Positions 2,516 through 59,674 of a stretch of 64,000 bases of DNA are shown here, piece by piece. The DNA lies in the NCBI GenBank assembly GCA_000004985.1, contig GG738850.1; one strand, given 5' to 3'. A model generated the notes under the pieces. That model was not told the origin of the DNA. It was given only the letters and a program-made list of their open reading frames with translations, and did no database searches. Positions within the stretch are counted from its first letter, which is position 1; every line of letters begins with the position of its first letter. This stretch comes from Naegleria gruberi. Lineage: Eukaryota. Made by a program: the position numbers and the translations under genes.

Positions 2516-3703
2516 TCAAAGTTCATCATGTGAATGCTTGTTGGAATAATCAGTTGATGGAGCATGAAAATGATTACCATTTTGGAATTGAGATAATTTA
2601 GTGGCACCTATGAGAATTGGATCGTCAATGGAGTGTAAAATATTCTTACCGAATTGATGTTCGATAATTGAAGAAATTGTTGGAAAGGAACATGTCGAAT
2701 TGAAAAGGATAATGTGATCTATTTGAGAGGGAGGATAGGATTCCATAATCTTGTGGAGATCTTGTTTGAAAATATCGAGTAATGGAGAGGAAACTTCAAT
2801 ATATTCTTCCAAGGTAATTTCCTTGAGTAATTTGCTATTCGAAAGGTCAGTTTCATGATCAAATATTTGGACTGGTTGTTTCTTAGCTAGTTTACATCTC
2901 AATTGCTTTGGATCTATTTTCAAATCAATTCCTCCAGGCCAATATCTTTCGAATAAGGAATCGAATTCATTCCATCCTATTCTTGGATCTGACTTTTCGA
3001 GTAATTTCTTTAATTTTTCATTAGAAAAATCCCAAACACCAACTTGCAACTCATAACTATTCCAATTCATTATCAAAATCTTTGAATTCTCCTCAGGAAT
3101 CAAATCATATCCTTTTATAGCTAAACTTTCCTCATCCACCAAATCAACTTGTAAATCCTTTGGCGCCAAATCCAATATTTTCCTTCTTTGTTGCTTGGAA
3201 AGTTGACTTGGAATAGAAATTATCATTCTCTCAACAGTTTCCTTCAGAAATTCTTCTGAACTTTCTTTCAACTTTTCGAATACTAAAATGGAAAATGCTT
3301 CAATCGGATCCAACAACTCAGTCGAACCATTATTAAACTTTAACTCCACAATTGGATTACCAGAATGATCTTGGATAATTTTACTTGGATAATCATCTAT
3401 AAAATCTGTTGGTAATTCATCAAATTTGTGCTCTAAAAGAAATCTGATTTGGTCAACTCTGTTTGAGTGTTGAAGATTTGCTTGTTCTCCAAACATAATT
3501 TCTCCATTTTCCATAATTGCAATAGAAGTATCCACTCTGTCATGTCCATTTGTGGTAATTCTGAAAAACATATCATGCTTGATGGTTGCAATGGAAATAA
3601 ATTCGTGAGTGAAATGAATTCCAACGCTCGCTTGATGAGAATGCAAAACAAGGGAAAGGATGAAAAATAGAAATATTAGCACCGCTGGTTGAATGGTTTT
3701 CAT
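2516..3703 (-). CDS. Signal-peptide-bearing, HDEL-terminated Hsp70-superfamily protein consisting only of a nucleotide-binding domain, with degenerate phosphate-binding motifs (STCH/HSPA13-like architecture)
   Basis: N-terminal hydrophobic signal MKTIQPAVLIFLFFILSLVLHS; VGIHFTHEFISIAT aligns to Hsp70 VGIDLGTTYSCVGV; IISIPSQLSKQQRRKILDLA aligns to VTVPAYFNDSQRQATKDAG; C-terminus ...HSHDEL. Confidence 0.6.
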   Translation of the reverse strand: MKTIQPAVLIFLFFILSLVLHSHQASVGIHFTHEFISIATIKHDMFFRITTNGHDRVDTSIAIMENGEIMFGEQANLQHSNRVDQIRFLLEHKFDELPTDFIDDYPSKIIQDHSGNPIVELKFNNGSTELLDPIEAFSILVFEKLKESSEEFLKETVERMIISIPSQLSKQQRRKILDLAPKDLQVDLVDEESLAIKGYDLIPEENSKILIMNWNSYELQVGVWDFSNEKLKKLLEKSDPRIGWNEFDSLFERYWPGGIDLKIDPKQLRCKLAKKQPVQIFDHETDLSNSKLLKEITLEEYIEVSSPLLDIFKQDLHKIMESYPPSQIDHIILFNSTCSFPTISSIIEHQFGKNILHSIDDPILIGATKLSQFQNGNHFHAPSTDYSNKHSHDEL

Positions 3704-3918
3704 TTTTTTTTTAAATATTATTTAGAATTTGTTGGAAGACTTTTTTGGAAACTTGCCAAAAATAGTGGATTATTTAAGTTTCGGTAGTTTCGTCCAAGAT
3801 TAAGGTTAGATGGAGAAAGTGAAGATATTTAAGCCAACAATTTAAGGCGAAACGTGATCAAGTCATAACTTTTTTTATTGACATCTCGTGTCAACTTGTT
3901 CATCACGTTTCTAAAAAA

Positions 3919-4891
3919 AATGGCAGAAAATACACTGGTTTTATGTGAAGAAGACTATTCTTTAACTAAACAACAATTTGCTGAAAATGAATTCGAAGAA
4001 ACAAATTTAAATTGTGAACAGAAACTAGACGAAAGTGATGATGATCAGTATATGGCTCATTCACCCAATACTAAACCAACAACAGAAACAAAATTGGAAG
4101 ATATCGCTGTAGGTGATGTTGAAAATTCCAACCATTTTCGTGTGAAAGCACGATCATTATCAATAACATCAATAGTTGCAGTGATAATAATCATGGGATT
4201 GGTATTTATTCGAATCGAGAATGAAAAAAACACTACTCATGTCAACAACTTGTTGGAAGAAGCCAGAAACGAAATTTCCAAATTAAAACACGATATGAAG
4301 ATGACACTGGAGGAAAAGAACAACCTTAAAGAACAATTTTACAAAGTGGCTCTCCAGGTTTTACATTTAGAACAGAAAGAACAAGAATCGTCCGTAAAGC
4401 TTTCGTCTATTCAAAAGCAAAACGAGAAAATCATTTCAACCTTGGAAGAACAACCCAAATCAGACTTGATAAATGGTTCAGATTTGAAGAGACAGCTTTC
4501 TGCGTTCCAAGAATCAATTATCAAATTCGAAAAGATAATCGAAGAAAAGAATGAGGAAATTCAAAACTTGAACTTTGAAATCTCTAAAAATTCAATTGCT
4601 ATTGAAAAATTGACTGATAGTAATATAGGTTTAAAGAAGGAAATTGTAAATCTGCCCCAACTCTCGCTGAAGAAGGAAGAATTAATTGAAGAAAATCAAG
4701 TCAAAGAAATGCATTATGAAAGCCTAAACGAACCGAATGCAGTTGATGATTTATCAAATAATGTTGAAGAAGAACATTTATTGTCACCACTACTGGTCAT
4801 ATTCTTTAGGGTTATTGAAATACTTGTTTTTACTTTTTTTGTCTTGATAGTTGGGTGCATATGTATTTTTGTTATGAGTATTAAAAAATAA
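3919..4891 (+). CDS. Coiled-coil protein with C-terminal transmembrane segment (tail-anchored-like); one earlier hydrophobic stretch
   Basis: ATG at 3919 (tracked ORF begins upstream at a non-ATG codon); heptad-like E/K/L-rich middle; C-terminal VIFFRVIEILVFTFFVLIVGCICIFVM. Confidence 0.5.
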
Positions 4892-4909: not shown

Positions 4910-7900
4910 TTACAACTTTCTAATACCTAATGGATCTGGATCTGGATTTACCAAACTTCCGCACGATGAAACACCACCAAAGTATTTACATTGAGAAACA
5001 GTCATGGTTCTTACTCTGGTTTCAGCTGTTGCTGGTGCTCCAACAAATCTCATATTATCCATCAAGAATTCAATGAAATTAGTTTGATCTGGCAAGTACA
5101 AGATAATTCTGTGAATGTTTTGAATTGGTGCAAAACCAAGTTCAGAAAGTGGAATTCTCACACGAGTCACTGTATTTCCATCAATCTTTAAATATTGAGT
5201 GTGATTAGCTTGTGTAGTGATCTTGGAAAAGTCAACAACCTTTGTAACATTCAAATAACCAAATACAATTGTCAAACTTGGAACACTTCCAGTATTATTG
5301 ACAGTCTTGATAAAGAATTCAAAATATTGATAAATACTGGTATCTACATAAATCTTATTGGAACCAATCTTGTTGAATGAAATATTTCCCTTTCTGAAAC
5401 CAAAATGCATTGATGAGTTTCCACAAATAGCTGGTGCATAACTAGCATTAACAAATGTATTTCTAATATCAGCTGGAACATAGGCATACATGGACCATTC
5501 ATTGGTCAATTTTGGACCTTCACTATAAATTGAAATAACATGGGAAGAATTCTTCAAATTTAAAGCATCACACGGTTTAACATTTGAAACCAAAGGTGGT
5601 AAATTACAACTTGTTGATGTAGCATTGTTAATATAGAGTTGAGCTCTCAAATGTCCATTTGGATTTTGAGTAGTTGATAATTTCACAAACATTTTACCTT
5701 GGAGTAAATAATTCCATTCATCATATGATAAGGCATATCCAAATCTGCTTTGAGTATATGGAATAATCTTTGAGGTTGGTGTGGCAATATAATCTTCCTT
5801 TCCTGCAAGTCCAAATCCAATATCAATTGATGTGACAATAGCATTCAAATTGTGTTGAACAGTAAAATCAAGAGAAGCTGTTTTGGAATTCAAGAATGCA
5901 AAAACGTAACCACCTCCACTTGTTGAATTGGCAGCCAATGATTTCACACTTGCTTGTTGGCATGTTTCCAATCTTCCAACAAATCTATCTTCTCTCATTA
6001 ATGTCTTATATGTTGTTCCTGCATTGCTTGGATTGGAGAATTTTGATGGTGCACAAATACCTCTTGGACATGTGGCATTCAAATAAACAACACCATATGA
6101 GTAGTAATCAACAAAGCTATCAACAACTCTGTATGATGTTCTAGAAGCTTGATTTTGGATCTTCAAGTACAAATGTTCAGTAGCATCATCATAATAGTAG
6201 TAATTCTTAGGTTCACTCAACATGGTTGTAAAGTTTGCAGTTCTGGTCATGTTAATTGTTGTTGGATTCATGAAGAATCTAATGTTGAAAATTGTTCCTT
6301 TTGGATATTGAACAGCAACAACAATCCAATCATTTGCAGCGCTTGCATCAAGGAAGAAACTCAAATCTTTTGGTGTTGGAATGTCGTATGGCCAACGAAG
6401 CCCATAGAAACCTCTTGCTACCAAATTACTTTGCATATAAAAGTCACCACTGGAGCTTAATGCACCAATAACATTGGATTGGCGATTTCTCAATAAATCA
6501 ACAAGAATCATTCTTGGAACTCTCTTTCCTGAATTGATAATATCAGGTCTACTAATACCATCACTTCCAGTTGTGTTAACACTTGTTAAATTCCAATTCA
6601 AAACACGGAATTGAGCAAAAGATTCACCAAAGAATGGACATTGATAGGCATTCCATTCAGTTCTTGCTTGACATTGTGTGAATGTCATGGTTGTGTCATT
6701 ACCAGTAATCCAACCACCAATTGATGAAATACTTGTGATTGAGCCGTCTACATCCATCAAAGCAGTGGCCTTGTGATTCTCATAATAAGTTGGATGATTC
6801 CAAGGGAAAACCATATATCTGTTTGCATTAACAAACTTTAAATTGGCATATCTATTTCTGGATTGATGTTTAAAGTAATTATTCAATGAAGATAAGGAAC
6901 CTGCATATTTGAATGAATCAGTAACAAAGTTAATAAAAGTGATATTTCTCAAATATTGTGGACCACCATTATCATAAGTTTCATAACCCTTAATCAAATC
7001 CAAATTGGAACTAATATATTGACCTGGTCTTGTTCTATTTCCAAGATCAATCTTTGGTCTGTATGAAAATTCACCAACATTTTCAGATTCACCAATAAAA
7101 GTACTATCATGAATGATACTTGGTCCTGGTGGAGAATTCATGGCAATTCTATTATCAGTTAAGAATAAATTTTTGAAACGAAGTAAACCACCACGTGCCC
7201 AAACACCATATCCTCTATTCTTATAAGCAATAAATCCATTGTAAAGTGCTTCAACAACACCTGAAGGATAATAACCAGCAAGTTCTGTACTTCCATCAGC
7301 TTTTTCCATATCATCAATGTGAAGAGCATTTCCTGATGAACTGTGACCAACATTGTTTTCAAATGGTTTTGGAGGAGCAGTTCTTGGATTAATAGAGCCA
7401 GCTGCGTATCTGTTTGCACTCAATCCAGTTGGGAATGTTGGCATTGTAAACCAAAATGGGAAACGACCACCAACTGCATGATTTCCAATGAATGTATTAT
7501 TTGGATTAGTAATCCAAAAAACTGAAACATCAGAATCAGATAAAATGATTTGACGAGGATTTTCTCTTGAGATTGGAATTGGATCAACTCCCAAATTATT
7601 GTTAAATTCATTTCCTACTTCAGATCCATCTTCCAAGAAGTACATATGACCAAAAGCACGATAACAAACATTATTCTTCAATAAAATATAATTAGTATCG
7701 TGAACAACATAACATCTTTGGAAACTGTGATGAACTGTATTATCCTTAACTGTGAAATTCAATCCAAATGGTTTGTTTTGTAACAAGTGGAAATGGAAAC
7801 TATTAATGAATAATAAGTAATAGTTAAATAAATCATTAAAAACAATATTAAATACAAGTTAAATAAAAATGATTACCAACACCAAACATACCTATATCTT

Positions 7901-8895
7901 CCCATTAAACCTTGTTGACCAAATCTTGTAATTTCAACACCTTCCATATTAAATTTATCAACCAAACGAATAATAAAGTGACCACCAAAAAGTGAACTTT
8001 CAGATGAATCATCACCTCTGAAAACAATTCTTCTTGTTAATAAACCAACTTCTGCACGAATCTTTCCATCAACACTTGCAAAGTGAGTATAATTCAATGC
8101 TCTATCTAAAATAATGGTCTTGTTTCCATTCAATAATTGAATAATCTTTCTCTCTTCATTTTGATTTGGAAATCGTTCACCACGAATCCAACCCAATGAA
8201 GCATTCTTTTCAACTCTGTAATCATATAATTCACCATAATCTGTTGAAGCAATAACAATTGAATCACCAACTCTCCATTGAACAGCTTCTTTCAATTCAA
8301 GTTGTGAACTTCCTTTGGTGGAATTCTTGATAATTTCACTCCAACTTGGACCATCAACTTTACCATAAATTTGAACAATAGATCCACTCAAAAAAGCAAC
8401 ACCTTTAGAACCCAATTTACTTCCATCGAATGGATCACTACCAATGTCATTGATAGAACTATTGACACGATCACCATACAATGTCAAGATAACTTTTGAA
8501 GTGATTGGACAATTTGAACTACCCATAATAAAACTACCATTTGATTCAACTCTAATGAAATTCAAATTCAAATTGAGATCAATATTATCAAAAATTAAAG
8601 AACCACCTGATTTAACAGTGATTGAACGTAATTTGTTTGGAGGAGAAATATTTAACTTGACAGCTTTTGTAATAACAATATCATAATTGGCAACATTCCA
8701 ACCAGTTAATGTGTTAAAATTGACCAAACCAACTTGTTGATGAGGACATTGACCTTCCACAATAATACTTTCAATCAATACACACAATAAAATTGTGCTA
8801 ATTAATGAAAGAATTACTCTTGTACTACAATGTTTGTTGTAATACATATTGTTTGTTTTTTTCAAAGTGAGAAATAAAGTGTCTCTTCCATTCAC
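4910..8895 (-). CDS. G8-domain protein of the CEMIP/TMEM2 (KIAA1199) family, 2 exons: complement(join(4910..7800,7892..8895)), intron 7801..7891
   Basis: Exon 1 has signal/anchor (ILSLISTILLCVLIES) then G8 domain (GWNVANYDIVITKAVKL...GGSLIFD...SNGSFIMGSSNCP...LTLYG); family motif GQQGLMGRY|SFHFH straddles a GTATGT...AATAG intron; downstream right-handed beta-helix-like Gly/Asn-rich repeats. Confidence 0.75.
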
Positions 8896-9831: not shown

Positions 9832-11274
9832 ATGACATTATCTTCAGCAGCAGAAACATCAGCAACATTAGAAATTTCTGGTAATTTGATTAAAAATTCA
9901 TCGGAATATGTGAGGGAAATGATAAATAATTTCGGAAGCACCAACAAGACAACACAACTATGTTCTATTGGTGGTGGATTATTGGGAAGTTTATTCATGT
10001 TAAGGTGGATTGTTGGAGTTTCTAAAAAGTCAAAGGAAAAGAAGAAGGAAATTGAAAGGATTTTCAAGGAAATTCAACAAGATTGTAGACAACAAGTCAA
10101 TGAATTGGTCAAGAAGGAAAATGTCTTGTCAAAGAAACAGAAAATTGGTGTCTTGATTGTTAATTTGGGAACTCCTTCACAAGCCACTCATCATTATGTT
10201 TACAGATATTTGTCTCAATTTTTAATGGATGGTCGTGTGATTGATGTGAGCTACTTGTTGAGATTTTTATTGGTGAGAGGAATTATTGTTCCATTCAGAT
10301 ATAAGAGATCGACTCGATTCTATCAAGAAATTTGGAAGAATAAGGATTATTCAAATTCAGAATGTTCTCCACTCAAATATAATACCACTAGTTTGGTTTC
10401 TAAAGTGAGTGAAAATTTGAAAGGATTGAATGATGACAATTGTGAATTCCAAGTGGAAATGGCCATGAGATATCAAGAACCTTCAATTGAAAGTGGTTTG
10501 AAAAAGCTTGAAGGTTGTGCACATATTGTAGTGGTGCCACTCTTCCCACAATATGCAAGTGCAACCACTGGATCTACTCATGAAGAATGCATGCGTGTTG
10601 TAATGAAATGGTTGACTATTCCAAGTTTACATTTTAATAGTACATTCAATTTGATGGACATGTTTATCAAATCCAATGTGAAGAGAATTCAAGAAGCTCT
10701 TCAAAGAACCAAGACTGAAAGAGAAAATCAACCATTCGATCACCTCCTTCTCACTTATCACAGTCTTCCAGTTCGTCATGTCACTCAAGAATTCCAAGAA
10801 AAGAAGAGTTTACAATATTCCTACTATCAACAATCCTTTGAGACTAGTGTTGCAATTTTGAAAGAATTATTCAACTGCACAGCAGAAGAATTAATCCAAG
10901 ATGAAACCAATGTTGGATGGTTTACTTACAAGAGAAGTCAATCTGATTCAAGTGATGACTATTCCTCCAATTTCACACCAACTCTCCAAATTTCCACATG
11001 TTTCCAAAGCAGATTAGGTAAGGAACCTTGGCTTGAACCTTACACCTCAAAAACTCTTGGACTCTTGGCAAAACAATCAAGTCGTGTCCTCATTGCTTGT
11101 CCATCATTCACTTCTGATTGCATTGAAACAGATCACGAATTGGAAATTGAGGAAAAGGAAGAATTCTACTTGAAGGGAGGTAAATACATGGCTGTTGCTC
11201 GATGTGTCAACGATGATGACCTATTTGCCAATGGATTGACTGATTTAATTGCTAAATATAAACAAGTTTTGTAA
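9832..11274 (+). CDS. hemH: Ferrochelatase (protoheme ferro-lyase) with N-terminal extension (probable organellar targeting/anchor)
   Basis: LIVNLGTP (cf. LNMGGP), VVVPLFPQYASATTGS (cf. YPQYSCSTTGS), LLTYHSLP (catalytic His context), C-terminal Cys cluster ACPSFTSDC. Confidence 0.85.
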   Translation: MTLSSAAETSATLEISGNLIKNSSEYVREMINNFGSTNKTTQLCSIGGGLLGSLFMLRWIVGVSKKSKEKKKEIERIFKEIQQDCRQQVNELVKKENVLSKKQKIGVLIVNLGTPSQATHHYVYRYLSQFLMDGRVIDVSYLLRFLLVRGIIVPFRYKRSTRFYQEIWKNKDYSNSECSPLKYNTTSLVSKVSENLKGLNDDNCEFQVEMAMRYQEPSIESGLKKLEGCAHIVVVPLFPQYASATTGSTHEECMRVVMKWLTIPSLHFNSTFNLMDMFIKSNVKRIQEALQRTKTERENQPFDHLLLTYHSLPVRHVTQEFQEKKSLQYSYYQQSFETSVAILKELFNCTAEELIQDETNVGWFTYKRSQSDSSDDYSSNFTPTLQISTCFQSRLGKEPWLEPYTSKTLGLLAKQSSRVLIACPSFTSDCIETDHELEIEEKEEFYLKGGKYMAVARCVNDDDLFANGLTDLIAKYKQVL

Positions 11275-11595: not shown

Positions 11596-12978
11596 ATGGG
11601 CAAGAAATCAAACTCTTCATCATCAGGCTCCTCCAGCAATTCTACTATTGGCTCTGTTCTTGGTATTTCCTTCTCCTCGGCACGTAATTCCTCTTCAAAA
11701 CCTCCACGAGAAATTATTCCTGCTCAAGAATACTATGAAAACATTCTCAAGTATACTTCCTCCACTTCAGAGGATGAATTAATTCAAGCCTTGAATAAGT
11801 ACTTGTTCAAAGCCTCTGATTTGTACTTTTATTATTATGAATTTAGTGGATGGAGGGATTTTACCAATGTAAGAAGAGCCTTCCATAAGATGGTGCAGAT
11901 GCAAACTTTCCTTTCACTATTGAGAGGAAAATACTATGTAGAAGTTACTAATAACAACAATAATAGTAGTAGTAGTAATAGTAATAATACTTCTTCAAGT
12001 AATCAGGAAGCAATTAATAATGAAGAAGCACCATCAGTAGAGAGTAAAGTCGTCCATATCGATTTTAATGCTCTGAAGAAGTCTCTCAAGTCTACACAGA
12101 GGATTGATTGTTCTTCACTTTCTGCAATTTCTAATATGGGAAAACCATCTGTGAAATCTTCCTCTAAATCTTCATCATCATCATCAGACTCTAAGAATAA
12201 TCGTGGAACAATCTTTCAAGTGGTGGAATCGGATTGTCTTGATGCAGCTGTTGCCTTAAAGACCAAACTCAAGTTGAATCCACTCATGTTGGTGAATGGA
12301 AGTTTGTCTCATCCTGGTGGAGGTTATTTGCAAGGTTCTTTTGCACAGGAAGAAGATATGTGCAGGAGATCTTCATTAGCTCTCTCATTGGATGATCCTT
12401 TCAAGATGGATGATGGTAGATCATGGTCCTATCCTTTACCAGAATTTGGAGGTGCTTATGTAGGTGATTGTTTTGTTATTAGAAAATCAGCCAAGGATGG
12501 TTATCAATTTTTGGAGAGTATTGTAAATATTTCAATGTTATCTATGGCTGCTTATGCTAATCCACCTGTGGAAAATCGAGTAATTGGAAAGGATGAGAAT
12601 GGAAAGGATATTGTGGAATGCTTTTTAGATTCAAAGCTCACATTAAGTATGAAAAAGAAGATTTCATCCTTTATTGAGATTGCTCTTCAAAAAGGTCACG
12701 ATTCTTTGGTGATTAGTGCAATTGGAGCAGGTGCTTATTCGAATCCAACATTTCACATTGCTACTCTCTTCAAAGAAGTTCTCTCCAGTGAAAATTACAA
12801 GGACAAATTTAAGATTGTTCTCTTCTCTATCATTAACGATAAGAATGCTGCCAATAATGTGAAGAATATGTATGGCACCTCACAGAAAACTAATCTTTCA
12901 ATCTTTTCCAATGTTATTCACTCTAAAGAACCTCATCTCCTTCCAACATTGGAAGAATTCATCCAACAACAAAAGTAA
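11596..12978 (+). CDS. Macrodomain protein of the bacterial-type poly(ADP-ribose) glycohydrolase family (DUF2263/TIGR02452-like) with Ser-rich N-terminus and poly-N/S inserts
   Basis: PARG signature GGGYLQGSFAQEEDMCRRSSL (GGG-x6-8-QEE, CRR[ST]); remaining sequence low complexity. Confidence 0.6.
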   Translation: MGKKSNSSSSGSSSNSTIGSVLGISFSSARNSSSKPPREIIPAQEYYENILKYTSSTSEDELIQALNKYLFKASDLYFYYYEFSGWRDFTNVRRAFHKMVQMQTFLSLLRGKYYVEVTNNNNNSSSSNSNNTSSSNQEAINNEEAPSVESKVVHIDFNALKKSLKSTQRIDCSSLSAISNMGKPSVKSSSKSSSSSSDSKNNRGTIFQVVESDCLDAAVALKTKLKLNPLMLVNGSLSHPGGGYLQGSFAQEEDMCRRSSLALSLDDPFKMDDGRSWSYPLPEFGGAYVGDCFVIRKSAKDGYQFLESIVNISMLSMAAYANPPVENRVIGKDENGKDIVECFLDSKLTLSMKKKISSFIEIALQKGHDSLVISAIGAGAYSNPTFHIATLFKEVLSSENYKDKFKIVLFSIINDKNAANNVKNMYGTSQKTNLSIFSNVIHSKEPHLLPTLEEFIQQQK

Positions 12979-21548: not shown

Positions 21549-24500
21549 TTAAATAACGAACAAAATACAACCCAAAACAAAAATTAACACTGCTTTCGTA
21601 ACATTGCAAGAGGTAGCTGCCAATGAAACTGTTGGTATGATAATCTTTGGTAATTCAACAGTAACTCTTTCAATTGAAGTTCCATCGGCTGCAAATGTGG
21701 AAATTGAAGCAACTGGTGTTGAGCTAGTTCCAGAATTAACCTTAACTTTCATTGTGATGGTGTAACTTGCTGGTGAGAGAGTTTGACCGAGAGTTGCATT
21801 CAATTTGTTGGAGGCATCAACATTCATTGAAGTAAATTGAATGACAATACCTTTTGAATCTGTTATAATGAAATTATCTGAAAGTGCACGTTTACTTTCA
21901 GATGTAAGTGTGAATGCTGCAGGAAGTGACATGACCAATGAACCTCCCATTGGAATTGGCTTTGTAATCACCATGGCTGTCTTGACACTCACCATTCCAC
22001 CAACAGGAACATAGGCAGTAGTACTTGTTTGTGGAGTAACAGGATTAATTGGATTGGTAGAATTATTGTTTGTAGAATTTGTGTTGGAGGTGTTATTGGC
22101 AATGGTTGAATTGTTGGTGGATGTACCATTGTTAACTACTGGATTAGTGGATGAATTAGTGGAATTGTTTCCATTATTGTTAATGACATTGTTGTTTGGA
22201 TTTGTGGAATTTGAATTGGTAGTATTGGAAGTGGATGTGTTGTTTCCATTCATTGAATTATTTCCACCAGAATCTGTTGTATTAGTTGTTGATGTATTAT
22301 TTGTTACAATAGAACTGTTACTATTTGTGGAGGAATTATCAACATTTGTACCATTACTAATAATTGAGTTATTTCCACTTGTTGTATTATCAACATTAGT
22401 ATTGTTACCATTGTTAACATTTGTATTATTACTGGCATTGGTATTATTGCTAGATGTAGTAGAATTGTCTACATTTGTGCTATTATTTCCATTGTTAACG
22501 TTAGTATTGTTATTGATGTTAGTGTTATTGCTGTTAGTAGTAGAATTATCAATATTTGTATTGTTATTATTATTAACATTAGTATTATTACTATTTGTGG
22601 AGGAATTATCCACATTAGTATTATTATTATTAGCATTGGTAGAATTATCAAAGTTAGTGTTATTATTACTACTACTTGTTGAATTATCAACATTAGTAGC
22701 ATTATTATTAAGACCTGGATCAGTATTATTATTCGAAGGAGAATCATTGACTGAAGATACAGTAAAAGTACCAGTGCTCTTAACAGTTAATATATAACTA
22801 CCACTGGATTGATCTTGTGTTGCAGTGCAGGTATCATCTGCAACATAATCACCAACAGAATCGTCCCATTTCAAACATTGATAAGTGGTTGTTGAAATTG
22901 TTCTCAATCCACGCAATTTTCTTGTAGAGCTACTGATTGAGGAATCAATTTGTAACTCGGCAATGCTTTCGGTATGATTCACATTCAATGCTTGATTCAA
23001 GTGTGAAATGACAAATTCAACAGCATTGGCCAATGCCTTGGAACAATTTGGTTTGAAAACATTAAGAGTAATATCAACTGAATCAGTAACATTGGACAAA
23101 GTTTGTAATAGATTGAACTTTTCACTCAATTTGAAACCATTTTTACCAGATATAGTTTCATTCAATCCATTTAAGAACGACTTGGTAACCTTTCTTCCGT
23201 AGGCCTTAACATCCTTATTAAGTAAAATAGTGGCTGGCATATCTGGAACCTTTTGATTTGAAGCAATATTGACCAATGAAGTATAAACTTGTTTAAGTTT
23301 TTCAGTTGGTTTCTCAGTTTTCAATTTTGAAGGTAAAATAGATCTGACACTTGAAGTAGTAAACAAAGTATCAGCTACTTGTTGAGTTTGTGTAAGAGTT
23401 TCATCAGATACTGGAATTGAACTATCCAGAGCTGTTGTTGTAGTTGAAATTAAAGTATCAGCAATTAAATTTGAAGTGTTTGATGACATCATGTCCATAT
23501 TTTCAGTTGCAATATCCAAAATAGTTGCTGTTGAAGCAACAAGAGATTCGGTTGGACTAGTAATAGATGCTTCTTGTTGAGTATTATTCAACATGGTGTT
23601 AATAACTGAATCAGCAACTTGAGCCAATTCTTGTTGAACCGTTTCACTGTCATTTGATTGAGAGTAATTAGCATTGGCAATGGATTGAATTAAAGCAGCA
23701 CCATCTGAAACTGGAATATTACTTTGATCAGCAATAGCATTTGCAGTTGCAACAGTTTCGTCCAAAGTTGCCTCGGTAACATTTACAGTTGTAATGGCAC
23801 TCGAAGAAGCACCCATTGCATCATAGACAGTTACTGATACTTCATTCACACCTACGATACCCAACTTTAATGAATAGAAACTAGTCTCAGAACGTGACGA
23901 AACAATGGTCCTTACTGAATTGGAATTTGGACCTCTTGTACTAAATTCATAAGTTAATGGAAGTTGCGCATCAGTCCAACCATTACCACATGAAACCTTA
24001 AAATCTGTCAATAGGGAAACACCAGAGCTTGGCTCAACGAGTAATTCACCAACTGTTGGTGGTGAGTTCACAGTGAAGAACACTTCAGCAGTACCTTCTT
24101 TATCGATAGTTGTGTTTCCAATAATAACAGTATCCTTAATGGTAATCTTCATTTCATTGGAGCTACCTGGAGTTAATAATTTTGATGGAATGATAATGTA
24201 TGCCTTTGTTACTTCCACACCAGTTAAATCAATCGATGAAGATTCCCATAAGAATGATTTGGAATCACTGAGTACAACTGGTTGAATTAACAATGCTCTC
24301 AAAACCAAATCCTTTGATGGATTGACAACTGATAAATCAACGCCGTCCATAGGCATAATTGACGAGGTAATAACAGTGTCCTTTGAAATTTCCAAAACGG
24401 TAACCTTAAGAGAATCAGTAGCAGTTCTGTTTTGCTTTCTATAAGTAACAGTGAAAAGATAGGAACCAGGATCCATTAATTGACTCATTTTCATGGTATT

Positions 24501-27500
24501 TGTAATATCGAGTGGGAATGAACCATTTGTACAAACGTCACCACTGTCCAAATCAAGACAGTCAATTGCAATGGATTGTACCTCATTGGTTTTTGATGGA
24601 TCTTGAGCAATAACTGAGAGTGAAACTGGATCTTCCATCGATTGAATTACATCTCTCAATGTAAATGCTACTTTCAATGCTGCAGAGGAAGCAGTTACTT
24701 TAAATGGCAAAGAAACATCTTGAACTCCGTCTTGTCTTGCAGTGAGCATGAAATAATATTCACCTTCCATTGGAAGAACAGTTCTTCCAGGACCAATAAT
24801 TAATCTTCCATCCTCAACAATGAAATTAGTAATGTTAGTAACACTGCTATAATCACTATTCATAGAGTAAATGAATTTAACACGACCTCTTCCCTTATTG
24901 CAAGCTCTATTGGAATAGGAAATGACTGGTGTAATGATGTTTAATAATCCCAAAGTATTAGAAATTGAAACTCCTTCCTTAATTGACAAATTAGGAATAG
25001 AATCTTCACTGACAACAAAGGAAATTGTTTGAGTTGAAGTAATTTCTGGAGCCAATGGACTACTGACAGTAACTTGAATAGAATAAGTTCCATTACTCAT
25101 ATTATTAGTATCCAAGATTAAATTTGGTTTGTTGAAAGTGGAAATCAAAGAGCTGAGGGTTAAAGAATCATCGGTGGTTGGTGCAGAAACAACTTGCCAT
25201 GCGAATTTCAATGGTCTTCTATCGAATGATTGAGAATTGGCAGCACTAATGAACAACTTATCGCATCCACGTGACACAACTGATTTTTCAACGTTGATTT
25301 GTGCTTCAGGTGATTGTGGTTTGAAGGATCCTTGCTTGATGGTTATGGAAATAGATTCAGATGATTGTGGATAAACGCTTAATGATAAATTTTGACCAAT
25401 TGAAATAGATGAACTATATCCAAGGATAATAGTTAATTTAGATTCACCATTCAACATACACATTGCTCCCTTTCCAATAAAATCAATTGAATCTGGTCTA
25501 ATTAAATCTTGACATGGAATAATTGACTTGATAGTGGAATAAACAGTACCATAGACTATATCAGCCTTTTCAGATAATTCAAAGTTATCAACAACGCTGA
25601 AATCACATTTGCTTCCATACCATCCTTGGGCACATTGTGAACAATTTGCACCAATTGAGTGACCTGAACATTTACAAGTACCATCATTCAAACAAATTCC
25701 TCTATTAGAACATGTCAATGCAGGAGAACATTGAATTTCACAATCAACACCAACAAATCCATTTGCACATGATTGACAGAAAGGTCCAGTAAATCTCTCT
25801 TCACATAAACATTTCAATTGTTGAGTACAATTACCACGATTATTACAAGTGTCTGAACTACAACGTGGAGTTTTACATTCTTCCCCATTGAAGGAAGGTA
25901 AACAGGTTGAACAATAAGTGGAATTATCATAATTACCATAGCAAACACATTGATCCTTAGCAATACATTTTCCTTTTTTGGAGCAGACATTAGAATCATA
26001 TCTTCCAACTCCATTACAAGTAAAAGTAGCACAATTTGGACCAGTATATCCATCAGTACATGCACATGTATTAGGTTGTGTACAAATGCCTCTTCCACCA
26101 CATACATTCTTATCATTAGCAGGCAATTGACCACAAATTGGAATTTTACAATCAACACCAGTATATCCATCCTTACAATTGGAACATGATTGGCCTTCAA
26201 AGTTACCAGTACATGTGCATTTGCCTTCCATTGAACATTTACCACGGAACGAACAACCACCTTGAGTTTCAGTTCTTCCATTACATGTTGGAATATCACA
26301 CATTTCACCTGAAAATCTTTCTTTACAGATACAATTGTCTGGTCCAATACATTTACCATTTCCAGAACACACTGATGGATCAGTGGATGCTTTTTGGAAA
26401 CAAACTAAGCTTTGACATCTATCTCCTGTATATCCTTGATTACAAATGCATGTATCTGTACTACCACATTTGCCACGACCTGAACATGCAAGTGGATTTT
26501 CTGAAGGTAAGCCAAAACATTTAATAGCTTGAGTGGAATTGGCTGAGAAACAATCATTGGTGGAATTCAGTGTTGAACAATAATCGGTAGCCATGTTAGA
26601 AGATAATCCCATTTCACTTGTTACAATATTCTTACAAGCATTGTTACACAATGGTTGAGATAAAACATTGGTTGAATTGATTGAACAAGATTTGAATGTT
26701 TTCAAACAGGATACTCTTAAAAGACCCTTTTTGCATGAATCTCCACAATTCTTGTATCCAACACTGTCAAGTAATTCAGAATTCTTCTTGTAAAGTGTTG
26801 TAATTTTTGTGGAAACTGACAAGGCCATTTTAGATTGAAAATCTGCTGGACTTGTTGAAATCACTTGACTCATTAAATCATCAGTGCTAATCATGTAATT
26901 AACATGATCAGAACATCCACTTAGTAAAGTCTTTGGAGGAATGATACATTGAGCAGCAGGTTTAAAATATTGACAATCTGTACCATAATAATTAGATGGA
27001 CAAATTCTTTGACAAGTTGTTGAATCATCAGACAATTGGAAACCTTCTGCACAATCAGTACATGGTCTATTGTTTCCCAATGTAGTATAACCCTTAGTAC
27101 AAGTACAATAAGGAGTATAGGCAGATGAATAAGAACATGTACCATTTCCACAACCTTGCTTTCCACAATTTGGAACCTTTGTAATACATATTCCATTAGC
27201 ATATATTAAATTATCAGAGCATTTCAAACAAAGTGGATACACCATTCCTTCGATAGCACATTTATCACAACTTGCACCACTATATTTGGTATTAGAGCAA
27301 GCTGAGCATGGAGCTGACATATTCACAGTCATGTAGCCAGTATTACAGACACATTGAGCAGTTGAGAGTGTAACTGCTTTACAAGCACCATTTCCACAAT
27401 TAGGTGTTGGACACACTGGTAATTTTACATATGGTCTATCTAATACATTTGGTTTAGGTGAATAATTACAAACAATCAAGGTAGCTCCATTCAATTCTGG

Positions 27501-28032
27501 CTTGTTGAACACTTTTGCACAGGTAGCTCTGGAACACCCGACTTTGGTGGAAGCTGCTGAGACAACTTGAATATAATGTTGGCAATCACCACTCTTTAAA
27601 CATAAGCTTCCTTAATTGTAAATCATAAACACTTACAGAACAATAATTATTTGTAAAGTCATATTTAGAAGATTCTAAAGTCCATTCATTCACAATATCC
27701 ACCACTGACATATTTCCCTTCATACTGACATGAATATTTACGCCCAAATTGAGAGAATTACTTGATGGTCCTGCAGCACATTTAGTAAGCCAAGAAGCTG
27801 CCCTAGATGCCAATTCATCACTCCATTCCAAGGCTGCTAACTTGTTAAGTGGAGTCGGAGCCACTGATAAACGTGCGGAATTGTGGGCATTCAAAATGGC
27901 TGTCTTTTCTGAAGAAGTTAATTCCGCAGCCCTTACTTGTTGTTGTTGATTCATCATCAACATGGATACAACCAAAAGCATCACCAACACAAGGCTAACT
28001 TTGTGATGATGGTGCGGATAAATGATGTTCAT
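21549..28032 (-). CDS. Giant (about 2120 aa) secreted/membrane protein: signal peptide + CAP (SCP/PR-1) domain + about 20 EGF-like Cys repeats + REJ/PKD-like module + N/S/T-rich linker + C-terminal hydrophobic tail; complement(join(21549..27593,27637..28032)), 43-nt intron 27594..27636
   Basis: CAP motifs spread over both exons (AILNAHNSARL, LEWSDELASRAASW, then after intron QHYIQVVSAASTKVGCS...LIVCNYSPKPN); GTAAGT...AAAG intron is phase 0; tracked 'start' at 27512 is GTG; C-terminus ...AVLIFVLGCILFVI (TM or GPI signal). Confidence 0.75.
22060..22760 (-). repeat. Coding low-complexity array: degenerate repeats of (N-N-[ST]-N/T-N-V-D-N-S-T) inside the giant CAP-EGF gene
   Basis: Direct repeats of gttaataatg / attattact-type units on the + strand; translate to NNNTNVDNSTT... 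on the minus strand. Confidence 0.6.
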
Positions 28033-56101: not shown

Positions 56102-59100
56102 ATGCAAATATCATCACGGAATGTGTTTGTTGTGGTATTGTTGGTAATTGGTTTATTGTCCAATAATGTTTATTCCTTTAATGCTTCAGTGTGCCCCACT
56201 TTCAATAGCCAAGCGTGTAATGGTGCCGCCTTATTGAATCCGTGTGCTTCTGGTGGTGAAGAAACAAATTATTGTGACTGTTTTGGATTTGGGAGTGGCG
56301 GGTTTTCAGCCTTTTATGGAGGTGTTGCATGTGAAACCTTTCAATGCTATAAAGTAGACATGCATATTGGAATTGGTCTGTACGACCAATATATTTGTTC
56401 AAATAATGGAGATTGCATTGGACCCAATAGTTGTCAGTGTAATCAAGGTTATACTGGTTACAAATGTCAATACTCTATTGCAGATATTTCTTGTTTTAAC
56501 TTACCCGCAAATAGTTCTACTGTCTGTAGTGGAAAAGGAAAGTGTACACATCCGAATGAATGCCTTTGTAATAAGGGATATGAAGGTTTAAATTGTGAAA
56601 AGTTTAGATGTTATGGTCATTTGAACTCGGATTCGAATGCTTGTAGTGGGAAAGGAAAGTGTATAGATTGGAATGTCTGCGATTGTGACAACGGAAATTC
56701 TGGAAAAAATTGTGAACTAGTGTCCACTGTTGGTAGCTCCATTCAAAGAGTATGTTTTGGAATACCTAACACTAACAATTCGGTCTGCAATAACCGTGGT
56801 GTTTGTGTTGGACCTGATTCCTGTGTATGTAATCCAGGATATTTTGGATCTGAATGTGAACATTCCTTCTGTTTTTCTATTCCTCAAAATGACTCATCTG
56901 TTTGTAATGGCAGAGGCTTTTGTAATGAAAAAGATTCATGTAATTGCCTTTCTCAACTCTCAAATGTTCTGATTTCAGGAAGTGAATGTGAATATTTACA
57001 GTGCAAGGGAACTTTTGGCCAATACTATTTCTCTACAGATAGTACCAATGTATGCTCTGGAAATGGAATTTGCACCCTAAACGGTTGTAACTGTACTGAA
57101 GGGTACTCTGGAGAATTTTGTCAAGATTATTTCTGTGGTGGTGTCCCAAATTACAGTCCATCGTCATGCTCTGGACATGGTAACTGTATTGCTCCAGATG
57201 ATTGTTCTTGCTATACTAATTCAACTCATGGTTTTTGGATAGGATCTGATTGCAGTGTTTGTGATTCATCTCACCATGGATCTGACTGTTTGTCCAGTGT
57301 CAACTGTGACAGATATGAAACTTGTAATGGCCAGGGAAATTGCTCTTCAAATCATACATGCCTTTGTGATGATGGATTCGAGGGAGAATTCTGTGATGAA
57401 TGCTCAAATGATAGATATGGTTGGGATTGTAAGCAGTTTTGTTCAAGAATTTCAAGCTGCTATGGTCACGGTGAGTGTTCCAGAGATGGCCAGGTATGTG
57501 AATGTGATTATTCCCAAAGCACTGGTTTTTGGAAAGGAAATAATTGCTCCTCTTGTGCTGATGGTTTTTTTGGAGACGATTGTTTGACAAAGGTTGGATC
57601 AACCTTTGAGTTTAATTCCCTAGGAAATGAGATTTACTTTGATTTGAATGGTCCTTCAACCTATCTTGGTGGTGTTGTTGATTGTTCAACCCTCTTATCC
57701 TCTTCCTCTTACTCATCTATTGGAAGTTCATTAGCTAAATGTATTTTCAAAACTCCTTTAATTCCATCAAGAATTTCTATAGAGCTTGCAAGCACATCAA
57801 CTATTAAGCCAGGCGACTCCTTGGAGGTTAATTTGAAAGTTTTTGATGCACAACATCTACCAAGATCTCTCTCCACACTCTCATGTTCAGCATCTAATAT
57901 ATCTTCTCCTATTGCTGAAATTGTTTACCACAACACCTTAGTGAGATATTCTGAAAATTTGGTTCTTACAGGAAGAAATAGATTAGGTATTCCTCGTGAA
58001 CGCGTATTGTTCTATGAGTGGACTTTAATTTCAAGTACCTCTTCTTTTAATTCTCTTTCTAGTGTTGTGTCGTCAGGATCAGGTCTAGGAAAATCAGTTC
58101 TCAATATTTCTAACACGGATTTACCAGATAACAATGCATTTGCAATTCAACTTAAAGTGAAACACCCAGACTTTAACTTGTGGAGTAATTATGTAATCGT
58201 TAACTTTACAAAAGAAGATCAACCAATAGTTCAATCACCGTACAAAAAATATGAAGTGTATATATATCCTCCTTTAGACCCCTATTATGTGACAGAGTTT
58301 GTTTTTCCAATCACTGTTCCGTATCAAGTTTTGGAAGATGGTGTTCCAGTGGATACTTCTTCATTTACTGCAATTAGTTGGACATTTGATCCAGATATTC
58401 AAGCAAGTGGGCAGAGTATTTTTACAGTGGATACAACAACAAATGGTGTACTTTCTTTTGATGCAACCATTAGTGAAATGGAAAATACTATTGTCACAGT
58501 TAAATGTGACGTTATAGAAAACAATGTTGTATTAACATCCAGTTCTTTCAAAATCAAATCTGTTGCAGAGTATAAACCTTCTCTCAAAACAAATGAGACA
58601 GATTATGGGGTTTTCTTTAATATTGGATCTTTGAAGGGAATGCCATTACAGCAGAGCTATTGGGAATGTCACGCACCAACACAGCACCAGGGAAAATGTG
58701 AACCTGAAATCGAGGCTTTCTTCAAAGATGCAACTAACAAGAAAAGCGTCTTTATTCCTAATGAATATTTATACAAGTACAAAGTACTTTATTATGCTCG
58801 TGTTTCAATGGTTGTTAATGGGGCTCATTATAAGGGACAAGCGGATGCTTTTGGTAAAAAGGGTTTAGAAATCTTAAAGATTGGAAATGAAGATGTAAAG
58901 CATTATGTCTATTTGAGTAGAACGCAACAAACTAACTACATTTTGTACTATGACAACACAAGACAATCAATGACAAGCCCTCCTTCATATTCAATGTTTG
59001 ATGAGCTTGGAAATAACATTACAGATATTCTTGTTTTGGATGCAACAAACAAACGTATTATAATCAATCCTACCGCAATACCATCTCAATCAACTTTATT

Positions 59101-59674
59101 AACCTTGTCCCTTACTGACACTTATGGAAGCATGATTTATAAGAAAAACCTTCATGCATTTGTTGACATGCTCCCTAAATCAAATTGTACTGTTAAAATT
59201 GCTGAACATCCGGTTACAGTTAGTGTTTTTAATGGAATACTCTACTTTTACAATATTACAGTAGCATGTGTAACTTCTTCAAAATTGCCAACAGTTAAAG
59301 TGTATTTGAAGAACCAAAATACCGAACTATTCGTATGTGATTTTGATCCACTATTGCTTCCAAGTCAATCTTGCTACATTCTACTTCCAGAATTGATTGG
59401 ACCAACAGATGTGTTTGCCAATGTTACTCATGCAACCCAGGAATTGGTTGCCCTATTACCTGTTGCAGAAGTAAGTGAATTGATTCCTATTGGAAGTCTA
59501 AGAGAAAGACAAACAACTCCCTCAGCAGATATTGATTCTCTTCAACAAATGTTCTACCAATATTTTGCCAATCCAAGAGATGTTGAAAACACATCTATGT
59601 TACTTCAAACTCAAATCAAAAAACTGCTCTACTTACACTACCCAGAAAAGGAGCTTTCGTATCCAAATCTCTAA
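56102..59674 (+). CDS. Secreted 1190-aa paralog of the giant EGF/REJ-like family (signal peptide, about 14 EGF-like repeats, REJ/PKD-like module, no TM in this ORF)
   Basis: ATG at 56102, signal MQISSRNVFVVVLLVIGLLSNNVYS; EGF-type Cys spacing; shared post-EGF motif GPSTYLGGVVDCSTLLSSS...VLFYEWTLISSTSS aligning with GPASYTQSKVDCSRLISSS...PLKYYWTIVSSPS in 48679..55723. Confidence 0.75.
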   Translation: MQISSRNVFVVVLLVIGLLSNNVYSFNASVCPTFNSQACNGAALLNPCASGGEETNYCDCFGFGSGGFSAFYGGVACETFQCYKVDMHIGIGLYDQYICSNNGDCIGPNSCQCNQGYTGYKCQYSIADISCFNLPANSSTVCSGKGKCTHPNECLCNKGYEGLNCEKFRCYGHLNSDSNACSGKGKCIDWNVCDCDNGNSGKNCELVSTVGSSIQRVCFGIPNTNNSVCNNRGVCVGPDSCVCNPGYFGSECEHSFCFSIPQNDSSVCNGRGFCNEKDSCNCLSQLSNVLISGSECEYLQCKGTFGQYYFSTDSTNVCSGNGICTLNGCNCTEGYSGEFCQDYFCGGVPNYSPSSCSGHGNCIAPDDCSCYTNSTHGFWIGSDCSVCDSSHHGSDCLSSVNCDRYETCNGQGNCSSNHTCLCDDGFEGEFCDECSNDRYGWDCKQFCSRISSCYGHGECSRDGQVCECDYSQSTGFWKGNNCSSCADGFFGDDCLTKVGSTFEFNSLGNEIYFDLNGPSTYLGGVVDCSTLLSSSSYSSIGSSLAKCIFKTPLIPSRISIELASTSTIKPGDSLEVNLKVFDAQHLPRSLSTLSCSASNISSPIAEIVYHNTLVRYSENLVLTGRNRLGIPRERVLFYEWTLISSTSSFNSLSSVVSSGSGLGKSVLNISNTDLPDNNAFAIQLKVKHPDFNLWSNYVIVNFTKEDQPIVQSPYKKYEVYIYPPLDPYYVTEFVFPITVPYQVLEDGVPVDTSSFTAISWTFDPDIQASGQSIFTVDTTTNGVLSFDATISEMENTIVTVKCDVIENNVVLTSSSFKIKSVAEYKPSLKTNETDYGVFFNIGSLKGMPLQQSYWECHAPTQHQGKCEPEIEAFFKDATNKKSVFIPNEYLYKYKVLYYARVSMVVNGAHYKGQADAFGKKGLEILKIGNEDVKHYVYLSRTQQTNYILYYDNTRQSMTSPPSYSMFDELGNNITDILVLDATNKRIIINPTAIPSQSTLLTLSLTDTYGSMIYKKNLHAFVDMLPKSNCTVKIAEHPVTVSVFNGILYFYNITVACVTSSKLPTVKVYLKNQNTELFVCDFDPLLLPSQSCYILLPELIGPTDVFANVTHATQELVALLPVAEVSELIPIGSLRERQTTPSADIDSLQQMFYQYFANPRDVENTSMLLQTQIKKLLYLHYPEKELSYPNL

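What the first reader, a model, noticed from the sequence alone, without database searches (positions are those of the whole stretch)
4910..8895. G8-domain CEMIP/TMEM2-like gene reconstructed across a 91-nt intron; signature GRY-x-HFH motif is split by the intron
The 340-aa ORF carries the G8 domain and the 958-aa ORF carries the beta-helix region. They join at GQQGLMGRY|(gtatgt...aatag)|SFHFH, which reproduces the conserved G-x-x-G-R-Y-P-[IV]-H-F-H motif of the hyaluronidase-type CEMIP/TMEM2 family. The family is patchy outside animals. A membrane-anchored member here could be a cell-surface glycan-degrading or glycan-binding protein.
Basis: partly seen in the sequence, partly recalled or inferred. 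Interest (0 to 1): 0.5.

Follow-up and report, generated by a model that had tools for sequence, protein, structure and literature searches.

The report
Annotated Naegleria CEMIP/TMEM2-like beta-helix gene
The two reading frames do join across one short intron into a 1281-residue protein related to the animal hyaluronan-degrading proteins CEMIP and TMEM2, but this exact gene model is already in the public Naegleria gruberi annotation, so the finding is correct and ordinary.

Summary
On the minus strand the coding sequence is 8847..7892 plus 7799..4910. The intron is 7891..7800, which is 92 nt rather than 91, and runs GTATGT...AATAG. It splits the Ser codon in GRY-S-FHFH.

The spliced 1281-aa product is identical, residue for residue, to Naegleria gruberi NAEGRDRAFT_46431, which UniProt names "G8 domain-containing protein".

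- **Domains:** Pfam finds G8, CEMIP_beta-hel (spanning the junction), CEMIP_X and CHRD.
- **Junction:** it aligns without a gap to 47 homologues, including intron-less bacterial ones.
- **Core fold:** a confident AlphaFold model (pLDDT 92.9) matches the human TMEM2 ectodomain (TM 0.79).
- **C-terminus:** it folds as a carbohydrate-binding-module-like beta-sandwich.

Three parts of the interpretation need correction:
- The protein lacks both lectin-like (GG) domains of CEMIP/TMEM2. These include the domain carrying the residues reported as needed for hyaluronan degradation.
- Its only hydrophobic segment looks like a cleaved signal peptide, not a membrane anchor.
- The family is not patchy: about 4,800 sequence clusters, mostly bacterial and protist.

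The best reading is a secreted beta-helix polysaccharide-degrading enzyme of unknown substrate. The gene is already annotated and interest is low.

The parts
7892..8847 (-). Coding exon 1 (ATG at 8847; 956 nt; residues 1-318 plus two bases of the Ser319 codon)
   Evidence: The spliced product is identical to NAEGRDRAFT_46431.
7800..7891 (-). Intron, 92 nt, GTATGT...AATAG, phase 2, with an in-frame stop six codons in if retained
   Evidence: Removing it gives a gap-free alignment to 47 homologues, including bacterial ones. The closest N. lovaniensis homologues have an intron 7 nt further 3'.
4910..7799 (-). Coding exon 2 (2890 nt; third base of the Ser319 codon to residue 1281, plus the stop codon at 4912..4910)
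8755..8847 (-). N-terminal hydrophobic segment (residues 1-31). It is a probable cleaved signal peptide ending ...IIVEG before QCPHQ.
   Evidence: It is the only hydrophobic 19-mer in the protein. Homologues end ...AVSA|QCPHQ...MVSG|QCPHQ...FVHA|QTCPHQ. Cleavage is inferred, not tested.
8335..8691 (-). G8 domain (residues 53-171), the first turns of the beta-helix
   Evidence: Pfam PF10162, E 3.3e-18. The model shows continuous beta-helix strands here.
7331..7989 (-). CEMIP beta-helix Pfam match (residues 287-475). The span includes the intron.
   Evidence: Pfam PF24606, E 7.7e-55.
7787..7902 (-). Family motif G-R-Y-S-F-H-F-H (residues 316-323), interrupted by the intron
   Evidence: Column conservation is R 46/48, Y 47/48, H321 47/48, H323 47/48.
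6131..6421 (-). CEMIP domain X match (residues 779-875), a beta-sandwich that follows the beta-helix
   Evidence: Pfam PF24605, E 2.1e-8. The region is modelled at high confidence and is included in the match to 8c6i.
5636..5935 (-). CHRD domain (residues 941-1040)
   Evidence: Pfam PF07452 scores 23.3 bits on the whole protein, just under the 24.1 cut-off, and 25.1 bits on the C-terminal fragment. 13 of 25 family members match it.
5030..5557 (-). C-terminal beta-sandwich (about residues 1067-1242) with a carbohydrate-binding-module-like fold

Best explanation
This is the two-exon Naegleria gruberi gene NAEGRDRAFT_46431.

It encodes a 1281-residue protein of the secretory pathway. The parts, in order, are:
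- an N-terminal signal peptide;
- one continuous right-handed parallel beta-helix, whose first turns are the 'G8 domain' and whose core carries the GRYxxHxH and GHxYFLEDGxE motifs;
- the CEMIP-type 'domain X' beta-sandwich;
- a CHRD domain;
- a C-terminal beta-sandwich that looks like a carbohydrate-binding module.

The most likely function is an extracellular polysaccharide depolymerase. In this reading the C-terminal module holds a glycan chain, and the conserved polar face of the beta-helix cleaves it.

Shown: the gene structure, the domain content, the fold, and retention of every family-conserved polar residue.
Inferred: secretion, catalysis, and the division of labour between domains.

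The substrate is unknown and need not be hyaluronan. The protein lacks the GG lectin domains tied to hyaluronan degradation in animals.
For: - Exact identity to the public protein.
- Pfam G8, CEMIP_beta-hel, CEMIP_X and CHRD.
- Sequence match to the TMEM2 ectodomain 8c6i, E 7.9e-46.
- AlphaFold model of residues 32-919 with pLDDT 92.9 and pTM 0.93. It matches 8c6i at E 5.7e-47 and TM 0.79. All other hits are beta-helix polysaccharide depolymerases: capsule lyases, phage tailspikes, GH110, GH28.
- 109 of 120 columns conserved at 85% or more keep the consensus residue. These include every conserved His, Glu, Asp and Arg: H321, H323, H352, H370, E375, D376, E379, D407 and others.
- Only one hydrophobic segment, at the N-terminus, followed by signal-peptidase-like residues.
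- 26 N-glycosylation sequons and 16 Cys.
- The junction is gap-free against intron-less bacterial homologues.
Against: - No enzymatic activity has been shown for any non-animal member in the literature I could search.
- Even for human TMEM2 the intrinsic activity is disputed, and no active site has been assigned in its crystal structure (PMC10206443, PMC10276149 against PMC10474455).
- No transcript evidence for the junction was available. The protein look-up found no gene record, and a scan for the spliced junction in metagenome contigs found nothing.
- Signal-peptide cleavage was judged by eye only. TMEM2 itself is type II anchored, with its beta-helix starting right after the membrane segment, so a signal anchor is not excluded.
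Confidence: 0.6

Rival explanations
1. The protein is non-catalytic. In this reading it is a glycan-binding, adhesion or receptor-type surface protein that uses the beta-helix and the CBM-like domain only to bind extracellular polysaccharide, for example on prey bacteria or the cyst wall.
For: The crystal-structure study of the TMEM2 ectodomain found no hyaluronan degradation and could not assign an active site (PMC10206443). Another study concluded that human TMEM2 is a regulator and not an enzyme (PMC10276149). CHRD and CBM-like domains are binding-type modules.
Against: A dense set of invariant His, Glu and Asp residues is conserved from bacteria to Naegleria to TMEM2. That is more typical of a catalytic or metal site than of a scaffold. 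All structural neighbours other than TMEM2 are depolymerases. Purified TMEM2 ectodomain was reported to be active (PMC10474455).
Confidence: 0.25
2. The protein is a membrane-anchored, type II cell-surface hyaluronidase equivalent to TMEM2.
For: It shares the beta-helix plus domain X core with TMEM2. The N-terminal hydrophobic stretch of about 19 residues could in principle act as a signal anchor. In TMEM2 the beta-helix also starts directly after the membrane segment (PMC10206443).
Against: Both lectin-like (GG) domains are absent. These include the one carrying R265, D273 and D286 of TMEM2 (PMC10206443). The cytoplasmic N-terminus would be only 10 residues. Homologues have canonical A-x-A or small -3/-1 sites before QCPHQ. 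From general knowledge, hyaluronan is a vertebrate and bacterial-capsule polymer with no known role in a free-living soil amoeba.
Confidence: 0.08
3. The two ORFs are separate genes, or a pseudogene broken by a frameshift, and the 'intron' is an artefact of reading.
Against: - The junction lies inside one Pfam domain match and inside one continuous, confidently modelled beta-helix.
- It restores an eight-residue motif without a gap against 47 homologues.
- The intron has canonical GTATGT and AG ends.
- Two N. lovaniensis homologues carry an intron 7 nt away.
- The public annotation uses the same junction.
Confidence: 0.02

Closest known systems
Human TMEM2 / CEMIP2 ectodomain (PDB 8c6i) and CEMIP / KIAA1199 / HYBID
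   Same: A continuous right-handed beta-helix that begins with the G8 region, followed by 'domain X'. All family motifs are shared: RAEVGxLTR, FGGH, GRYxxHFH, IHHSFxRC, GHxxFLEDGxE, FWIxxPNN. Sequence E 7.9e-46; structural TM 0.79, 21% identity.
   Different: - No lectin-like (GG) domain 1 inserted in the helix, and no C-terminal lectin-like domain 2.
- CHRD plus a CBM-like domain sit at the C-terminus instead.
- A short N-terminus with a probable cleaved signal peptide, rather than an 80-residue cytoplasmic tail plus a type II anchor.
- Ser in place of the usual Pro in the motif (GRY-S-FHFH), which is shared by 7 of the 48 aligned sequences and was seen only among the Naegleria/Willaertia group and one unnamed metagenome protein.
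Heterolobosean and other protist paralogues (NAEGRDRAFT_66848 at 68% identity; N. lovaniensis C9374_003197 at 61% and C9374_000471 at 55%; Willaertia magna; Planoprotostelium fungivorum PROFUN_14515)
   Same: Same full-length architecture with 93-99% coverage, the same signal peptide followed by QCPHQ at the start, and CHRD in many of them.
   Different: Intron content differs: one intron here, against six and four in the two closest N. lovaniensis genes. The intron inside the motif lies 7 nt further 3' in both of those genes.
Bacterial G8 + CEMIP_beta-hel proteins of about 750-930 residues (for example Capsulimonas corticalis CCAX7_22670, and genomes assembled from metagenomes of Gammaproteobacteria, Nitrospira and Thermaceae)
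   Same: The beta-helix core with the same invariant residues, at about 30% identity over 50-65% of the query.
   Different: They are shorter and lack the CHRD and CBM-like C-terminal half. They are uncharacterised in the literature I could search.
Beta-helix polysaccharide depolymerases (Klebsiella K1 capsule lyase 7w1c, phage tailspikes 4ru4/4ru5/1tsp, GH110 7jw4, GH28 2uvf, chondroitinase B 1ofm)
   Same: The right-handed parallel beta-helix fold. Foldseek probability is about 1 for many of them. The modular pairing with a CBM is typical of carbohydrate-active enzymes.
   Different: TM-scores are only 0.12-0.24 and identity 7-11%, so the similarity is at fold level only. No catalytic residues could be mapped across.

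Membership tests
CEMIP/TMEM2 beta-helix superfamily (Pfam G8 PF10162 + CEMIP_beta-hel PF24606 + CEMIP_X PF24605) | G8 domain detected above the curated threshold | tested here: met
   66.2 bits against a cut-off of 22.9, E 3.3e-18, residues 53-171.
CEMIP/TMEM2 beta-helix superfamily (Pfam G8 PF10162 + CEMIP_beta-hel PF24606 + CEMIP_X PF24605) | CEMIP-type beta-helix core with the GRYxxHxH and GHxxFLEDGxE motifs | tested here: met
   PF24606 at 186.4 bits against a cut-off of 27.3. The motifs are present and align without gaps. 109 of 120 conserved columns are retained.
CEMIP/TMEM2 beta-helix superfamily (Pfam G8 PF10162 + CEMIP_beta-hel PF24606 + CEMIP_X PF24605) | Domain X beta-sandwich after the helix | tested here: met
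   PF24605 at 34.4 bits against a cut-off of 27.6. The predicted structure superposes on 8c6i with TM 0.79.
Animal CEMIP/TMEM2 hyaluronan-depolymerising proteins in the strict sense | Lectin-like (GG) domain 1 inserted in the beta-helix, carrying the residues whose mutation abolishes activity (TMEM2 R265, D273, D286; CEMIP R187) | tested here: not met
   There are 56 residues (129-184) where the TMEM2 chain has about 211. No GG/ILEI-type Pfam match at E<=0.1. The model shows only helix turns there. The residue locations come from PMC10206443.
Animal CEMIP/TMEM2 hyaluronan-depolymerising proteins in the strict sense | Second lectin-like (GG) domain at the C-terminus | tested here: not met
   The C-terminal 400 residues fold as CHRD plus a CBM-like sandwich.
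Animal CEMIP/TMEM2 hyaluronan-depolymerising proteins in the strict sense | Degradation of hyaluronan | not testable with these tools
   This needs a biochemical assay. It is contested even for human TMEM2 (PMC10206443, PMC10276149, PMC10474455).
TMEM2-type type II membrane proteins | Uncleaved N-terminal signal anchor preceded by a cytoplasmic domain | tested here: inconclusive
   There is one hydrophobic segment at residues 11-30, with only 10 residues before it. The small -3/-1 residues before the conserved QCPHQ in homologues favour cleavage. No signal-peptide predictor was available.
CHRD domain proteins (PF07452) | Match above the Pfam gathering score | tested here: met
   25.1 bits against a cut-off of 24.1 on the isolated C-terminal fragment. 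The whole protein scores 23.3, just below. 13 of 25 relatives match. This is a borderline match.
Carbohydrate-binding modules with a beta-sandwich fold (CBM8/CBM11/CBM30-like) | Fold similarity to solved CBMs | tested here: met
Carbohydrate-binding modules with a beta-sandwich fold (CBM8/CBM11/CBM30-like) | Sequence membership of a CAZy/Pfam CBM family, and demonstrated glycan binding | tested here: not met
   This protein has no Pfam CBM match. Only one homologue touches CBM30, at E 8.7e-4. Identity to the solved CBMs is 11-14%. Binding itself cannot be tested here.

The most novel reading that the evidence does not exclude
The protist and bacterial G8/beta-helix proteins could be an uncharacterised family of secreted polysaccharide depolymerases. 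Their active site would be the invariant His/Glu/Asp cluster around GRYxxHxH and GHxYFLEDGxE. This Naegleria protein has the catalytic core plus a CBM-like module and no GG lectin domains. It, or a bacterial relative, would then be a simple system to test whether the CEMIP/TMEM2 beta-helix is intrinsically catalytic. That question is currently disputed for the human proteins.
Probability: 0.3. Interest if true: 0.5.

Novelty: already known. Interest (0 to 1): 0.15.

Why it matters
For genome annotation it matters little. The gene, its intron and its G8 label are already public.

The modest value lies elsewhere:
- It shows that the CEMIP/TMEM2 core is an ancient, widespread microbial module, with about 4,800 sequence clusters.
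- It shows that the animal proteins are the elaborated form, with two lectin domains added.
- Free-living amoebae carry several secreted paralogues with CBM-like tails. These could be useful, simpler models for finding the chemistry and active site of a family whose human members are medically important and whose catalytic status is disputed.

Tried and rejected
- **Gene record look-up.** I looked for a gene record or transcript assembly encoding the exact protein and its N. gruberi paralogue. None was on record, nor for the Willaertia homologue.
- **Junction scan.** I scanned metagenome contigs for the 30-nt spliced junction as a stand-in for cDNA evidence. It found no matches. This was expected and is not informative.
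- **Literature.** I searched for Naegleria plus G8, for the locus tag, for 'G8 domain-containing protein', and for bacterial G8 enzymes. Nothing relevant turned up. A search for a CEMIP cryo-EM structure or catalytic-site paper also found nothing usable.
- **Tandem paralogue.** I considered a second copy in the window. tblastn finds only the gene itself.
- **Cellulose or cyst wall as substrate.** I considered this because of the CBM8-like fold. The literature search returned only Acanthamoeba work, and the similarity is at fold level only, so I make no such claim.
- **Two separate genes or a pseudogene.** I rejected this (see the rival explanations).
- **Not done.** A phylogeny with animal sequences, which were not among the retrieved hits. 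Mapping the conserved residues in three dimensions, because the tools do not return model coordinates. One fold search was left unused.
Full report
**Observation**

The window is AT-rich, at about 34% G+C. On the minus strand it carries a 340-aa ORF (7873..8895) and a 958-aa ORF (4910..7786).

Reading the DNA and splicing it by script gives this layout:
- Exon 1 ends ...GGA AGA TAT AG at 7892.
- A 92-nt intron, GTATGT...AATAG, occupies 7891..7800.
- Exon 2 begins T TTC CAT TTC CAC at 7799.

The join restores G-R-Y-S-F-H-F-H, with the Ser codon split after its second base. If the intron were retained, translation would stop after six more codons (RYVWCW*). The start is the ATG at 8847 (MYYNKH...). 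The coding sequence is therefore 8847..7892 plus 7799..4910, giving 1281 codons plus the stop.

**Identity**

The spliced protein is identical over all 1281 residues to a public protein, Naegleria gruberi NAEGRDRAFT_46431. NCBI calls it a hypothetical protein and UniProt calls it a G8 domain-containing protein (string equality checked).

The look-up tool held no gene record for it, and no paper in the searchable library mentions it.

**Support for the junction**

No transcript data were available, and a scan of metagenome contigs for the spliced junction found nothing. The comparative evidence is nonetheless strong:
- The Pfam CEMIP_beta-hel match (residues 287-475, E 7.7e-55) spans the junction at residues 318/319.
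- In a 48-sequence alignment the region GQxxx[LMV][GA]RY[PS]xH[FW]H is gap-free in 47 sequences. These include bacterial homologues, which have no introns.
- The one exception is another public N. gruberi model, NAEGRDRAFT_56847, which lacks the motif and is probably mis-spliced.
- The human TMEM2 sequence aligns across the junction as MGRYPVHFHL.
- The two closest N. lovaniensis homologues also carry an intron inside this motif.

**Architecture**

Pfam on the whole protein gives:

| Domain | Residues | E-value |
|---|---|---|
| G8 | 53-171 | 3.3e-18 |
| CEMIP_beta-hel | 287-475 | 7.7e-55 |
| CEMIP_X | 779-875 | 2.1e-8 |
| CHRD | 941-1040 | 1.2e-4 |

The CHRD match scores 23.3 bits, just under the 24.1 cut-off. 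On the isolated C-terminal fragment it scores 25.1 bits, and 13 of 25 relatives match it.

An AlphaFold model of residues 32-919, built with 47 homologues, is confident (pLDDT 92.9, pTM 0.93). Its best solved match by far is the human TMEM2 ectodomain 8c6i (E 5.7e-47, TM 0.79 on the query, 21% identity). All other hits are generic beta-helix polysaccharide depolymerases at TM 0.12-0.24. By sequence, 8c6i is the only PDB hit (E 7.9e-46).

**Differences from CEMIP/TMEM2**

According to the TMEM2 structure paper (PMC10206443):
- G8 is simply the start of one continuous beta-helix.
- A small sandwich and lectin-like domain 1 are inserted after three turns.
- Domain X and lectin-like domain 2 follow the helix.
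- All substitutions reported to abolish TMEM2 activity (R265C, D273N, D286N) lie in lectin-like domain 1.

In the alignment to 8c6i, the Naegleria protein has 56 residues (129-184) where the TMEM2 chain has about 211. Pfam finds no GG/ILEI-type domain, and the C-terminus is CHRD plus a CBM-like domain. Both lectin-like domains are therefore absent. The protein belongs to the superfamily core, but it fails the features specific to the animal hyaluronan-depolymerising proteins.

**Secreted or anchored**

The only hydrophobic 19-residue window is at residues 11-30. It is preceded by 10 residues and followed at once by QCPHQ, the conserved start of the helix.

Homologues end their hydrophobic stretch with ...AVSA...MVSG...FVHA or ...FVHT directly before Q(x)CPH. 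This is the usual signal-peptidase pattern. There is no C-terminal hydrophobic tail. I therefore favour a cleaved signal peptide and a secreted protein. A type II anchor as in TMEM2 is not excluded, because no predictor was available.

**Distribution**

An exhaustive HMMER search with residues 32-919 against 1.84 billion cluster representatives found 4786 proteins at E<=1e-3, 3034 at E<=1e-10 and 1091 at E<=1e-30.

Full-length relatives (93-99% coverage) named by their sources come from Naegleria, Willaertia and Planoprotostelium; others are unnamed EukProt transcriptome and metagenome proteins. Many proteins of about 750-930 residues, named from Armatimonadota, Gammaproteobacteria, Actinomycetota, Nitrospira, Thermaceae and others, share the beta-helix core at about 30% identity. 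The family is not patchy outside animals.

**Function**

Of 120 alignment columns conserved at 85% or more among the 47 homologues, this protein keeps the consensus residue in 109. The 11 differences are mostly conservative and remove no conserved His, Glu or Arg; the one conserved acidic position that differs is a mild Asp-to-Asn change at residue 66. The retained polar residues include H255, E266, H290, E305, R317, Y318, H321, H323, R347, H352, H370, E375, D376, E379, D407, N417, N420, H471 and K512. The same motifs are present in TMEM2.

Three features point to a secreted polysaccharide depolymerase: this density of invariant ionisable residues, a fold otherwise used by glycan hydrolases and lyases, and an appended CBM-like module. 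Neither the chemistry (hydrolase or lyase) nor the substrate can be inferred. No non-animal member has been characterised in the searchable literature.

The catalytic status of human TMEM2 is itself disputed. Two studies found no activity and no assignable active site (PMC10206443, PMC10276149). A third reported robust activity of the purified ectodomain (PMC10474455). A binding-only role is the main rival.

**Verdict**

The gene model already exists in public annotation, so novelty is nil for the gene itself.

The residual interest is that microbial members lacking GG domains could serve as simple models for the disputed CEMIP/TMEM2 chemistry.

Noticed in passing
window 7800..7891, compared with L001 2199..2273 and L002 1373..1433: The intron position is shifted between species. 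N. gruberi splits the motif as GRY-S(phase 2)|FHFH. The two closest N. lovaniensis homologues (C9374_003197 and C9374_000471) both have a phase-0 intron 7 nt further 3', at GRYSLH|FH. A more distant paralogue (L003) has no intron there. This is either intron sliding or independent gain and loss at nearly the same site.
   Followed up: partly
L001 1001..5337, compared with window 4910..8847: The closest N. lovaniensis homologue has six annotated introns where the N. gruberi gene has one. The intron in the motif is 75 nt and has no in-frame stop. Only homology shows that it must be removed.
   Followed up: partly
public protein P0010 (NAEGRDRAFT_56847), not in this window: This public N. gruberi paralogue model lacks the RYxxHFH motif in the alignment, with a gap directly after ...GVMG. 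The likely cause is a mis-called intron or exon boundary in the public annotation.
   Followed up: no
window 3878..4891 (+): A convergent neighbouring ORF of 337 aa has no Pfam match and a hydrophobic C-terminal end. It ends at 4891, leaving 18 bases before the stop codon of the G8 gene at 4910, so the two 3' ends must overlap or abut.
   Followed up: no
window 21549..27512 (-) and 56102..59674 (+): There are two large ORFs rich in teneurin-type EGF repeats. The first also has a REJ domain (E 3e-28), the module known from polycystin-1. It lies 13 kb from a G8 protein, and G8 is the domain known from fibrocystin. This is probably coincidence.
   Followed up: no
window 9832..11274 (+), 11596..12978 (+), 2516..3703 (-): The neighbouring ORFs encode ferrochelatase (E 9e-77), a protein with a microbial-type PARG catalytic domain (E 9e-17), and an Hsp70-like fragment (E 2e-12). 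These are ordinary housekeeping context with no functional link to the G8 gene.
   Followed up: no
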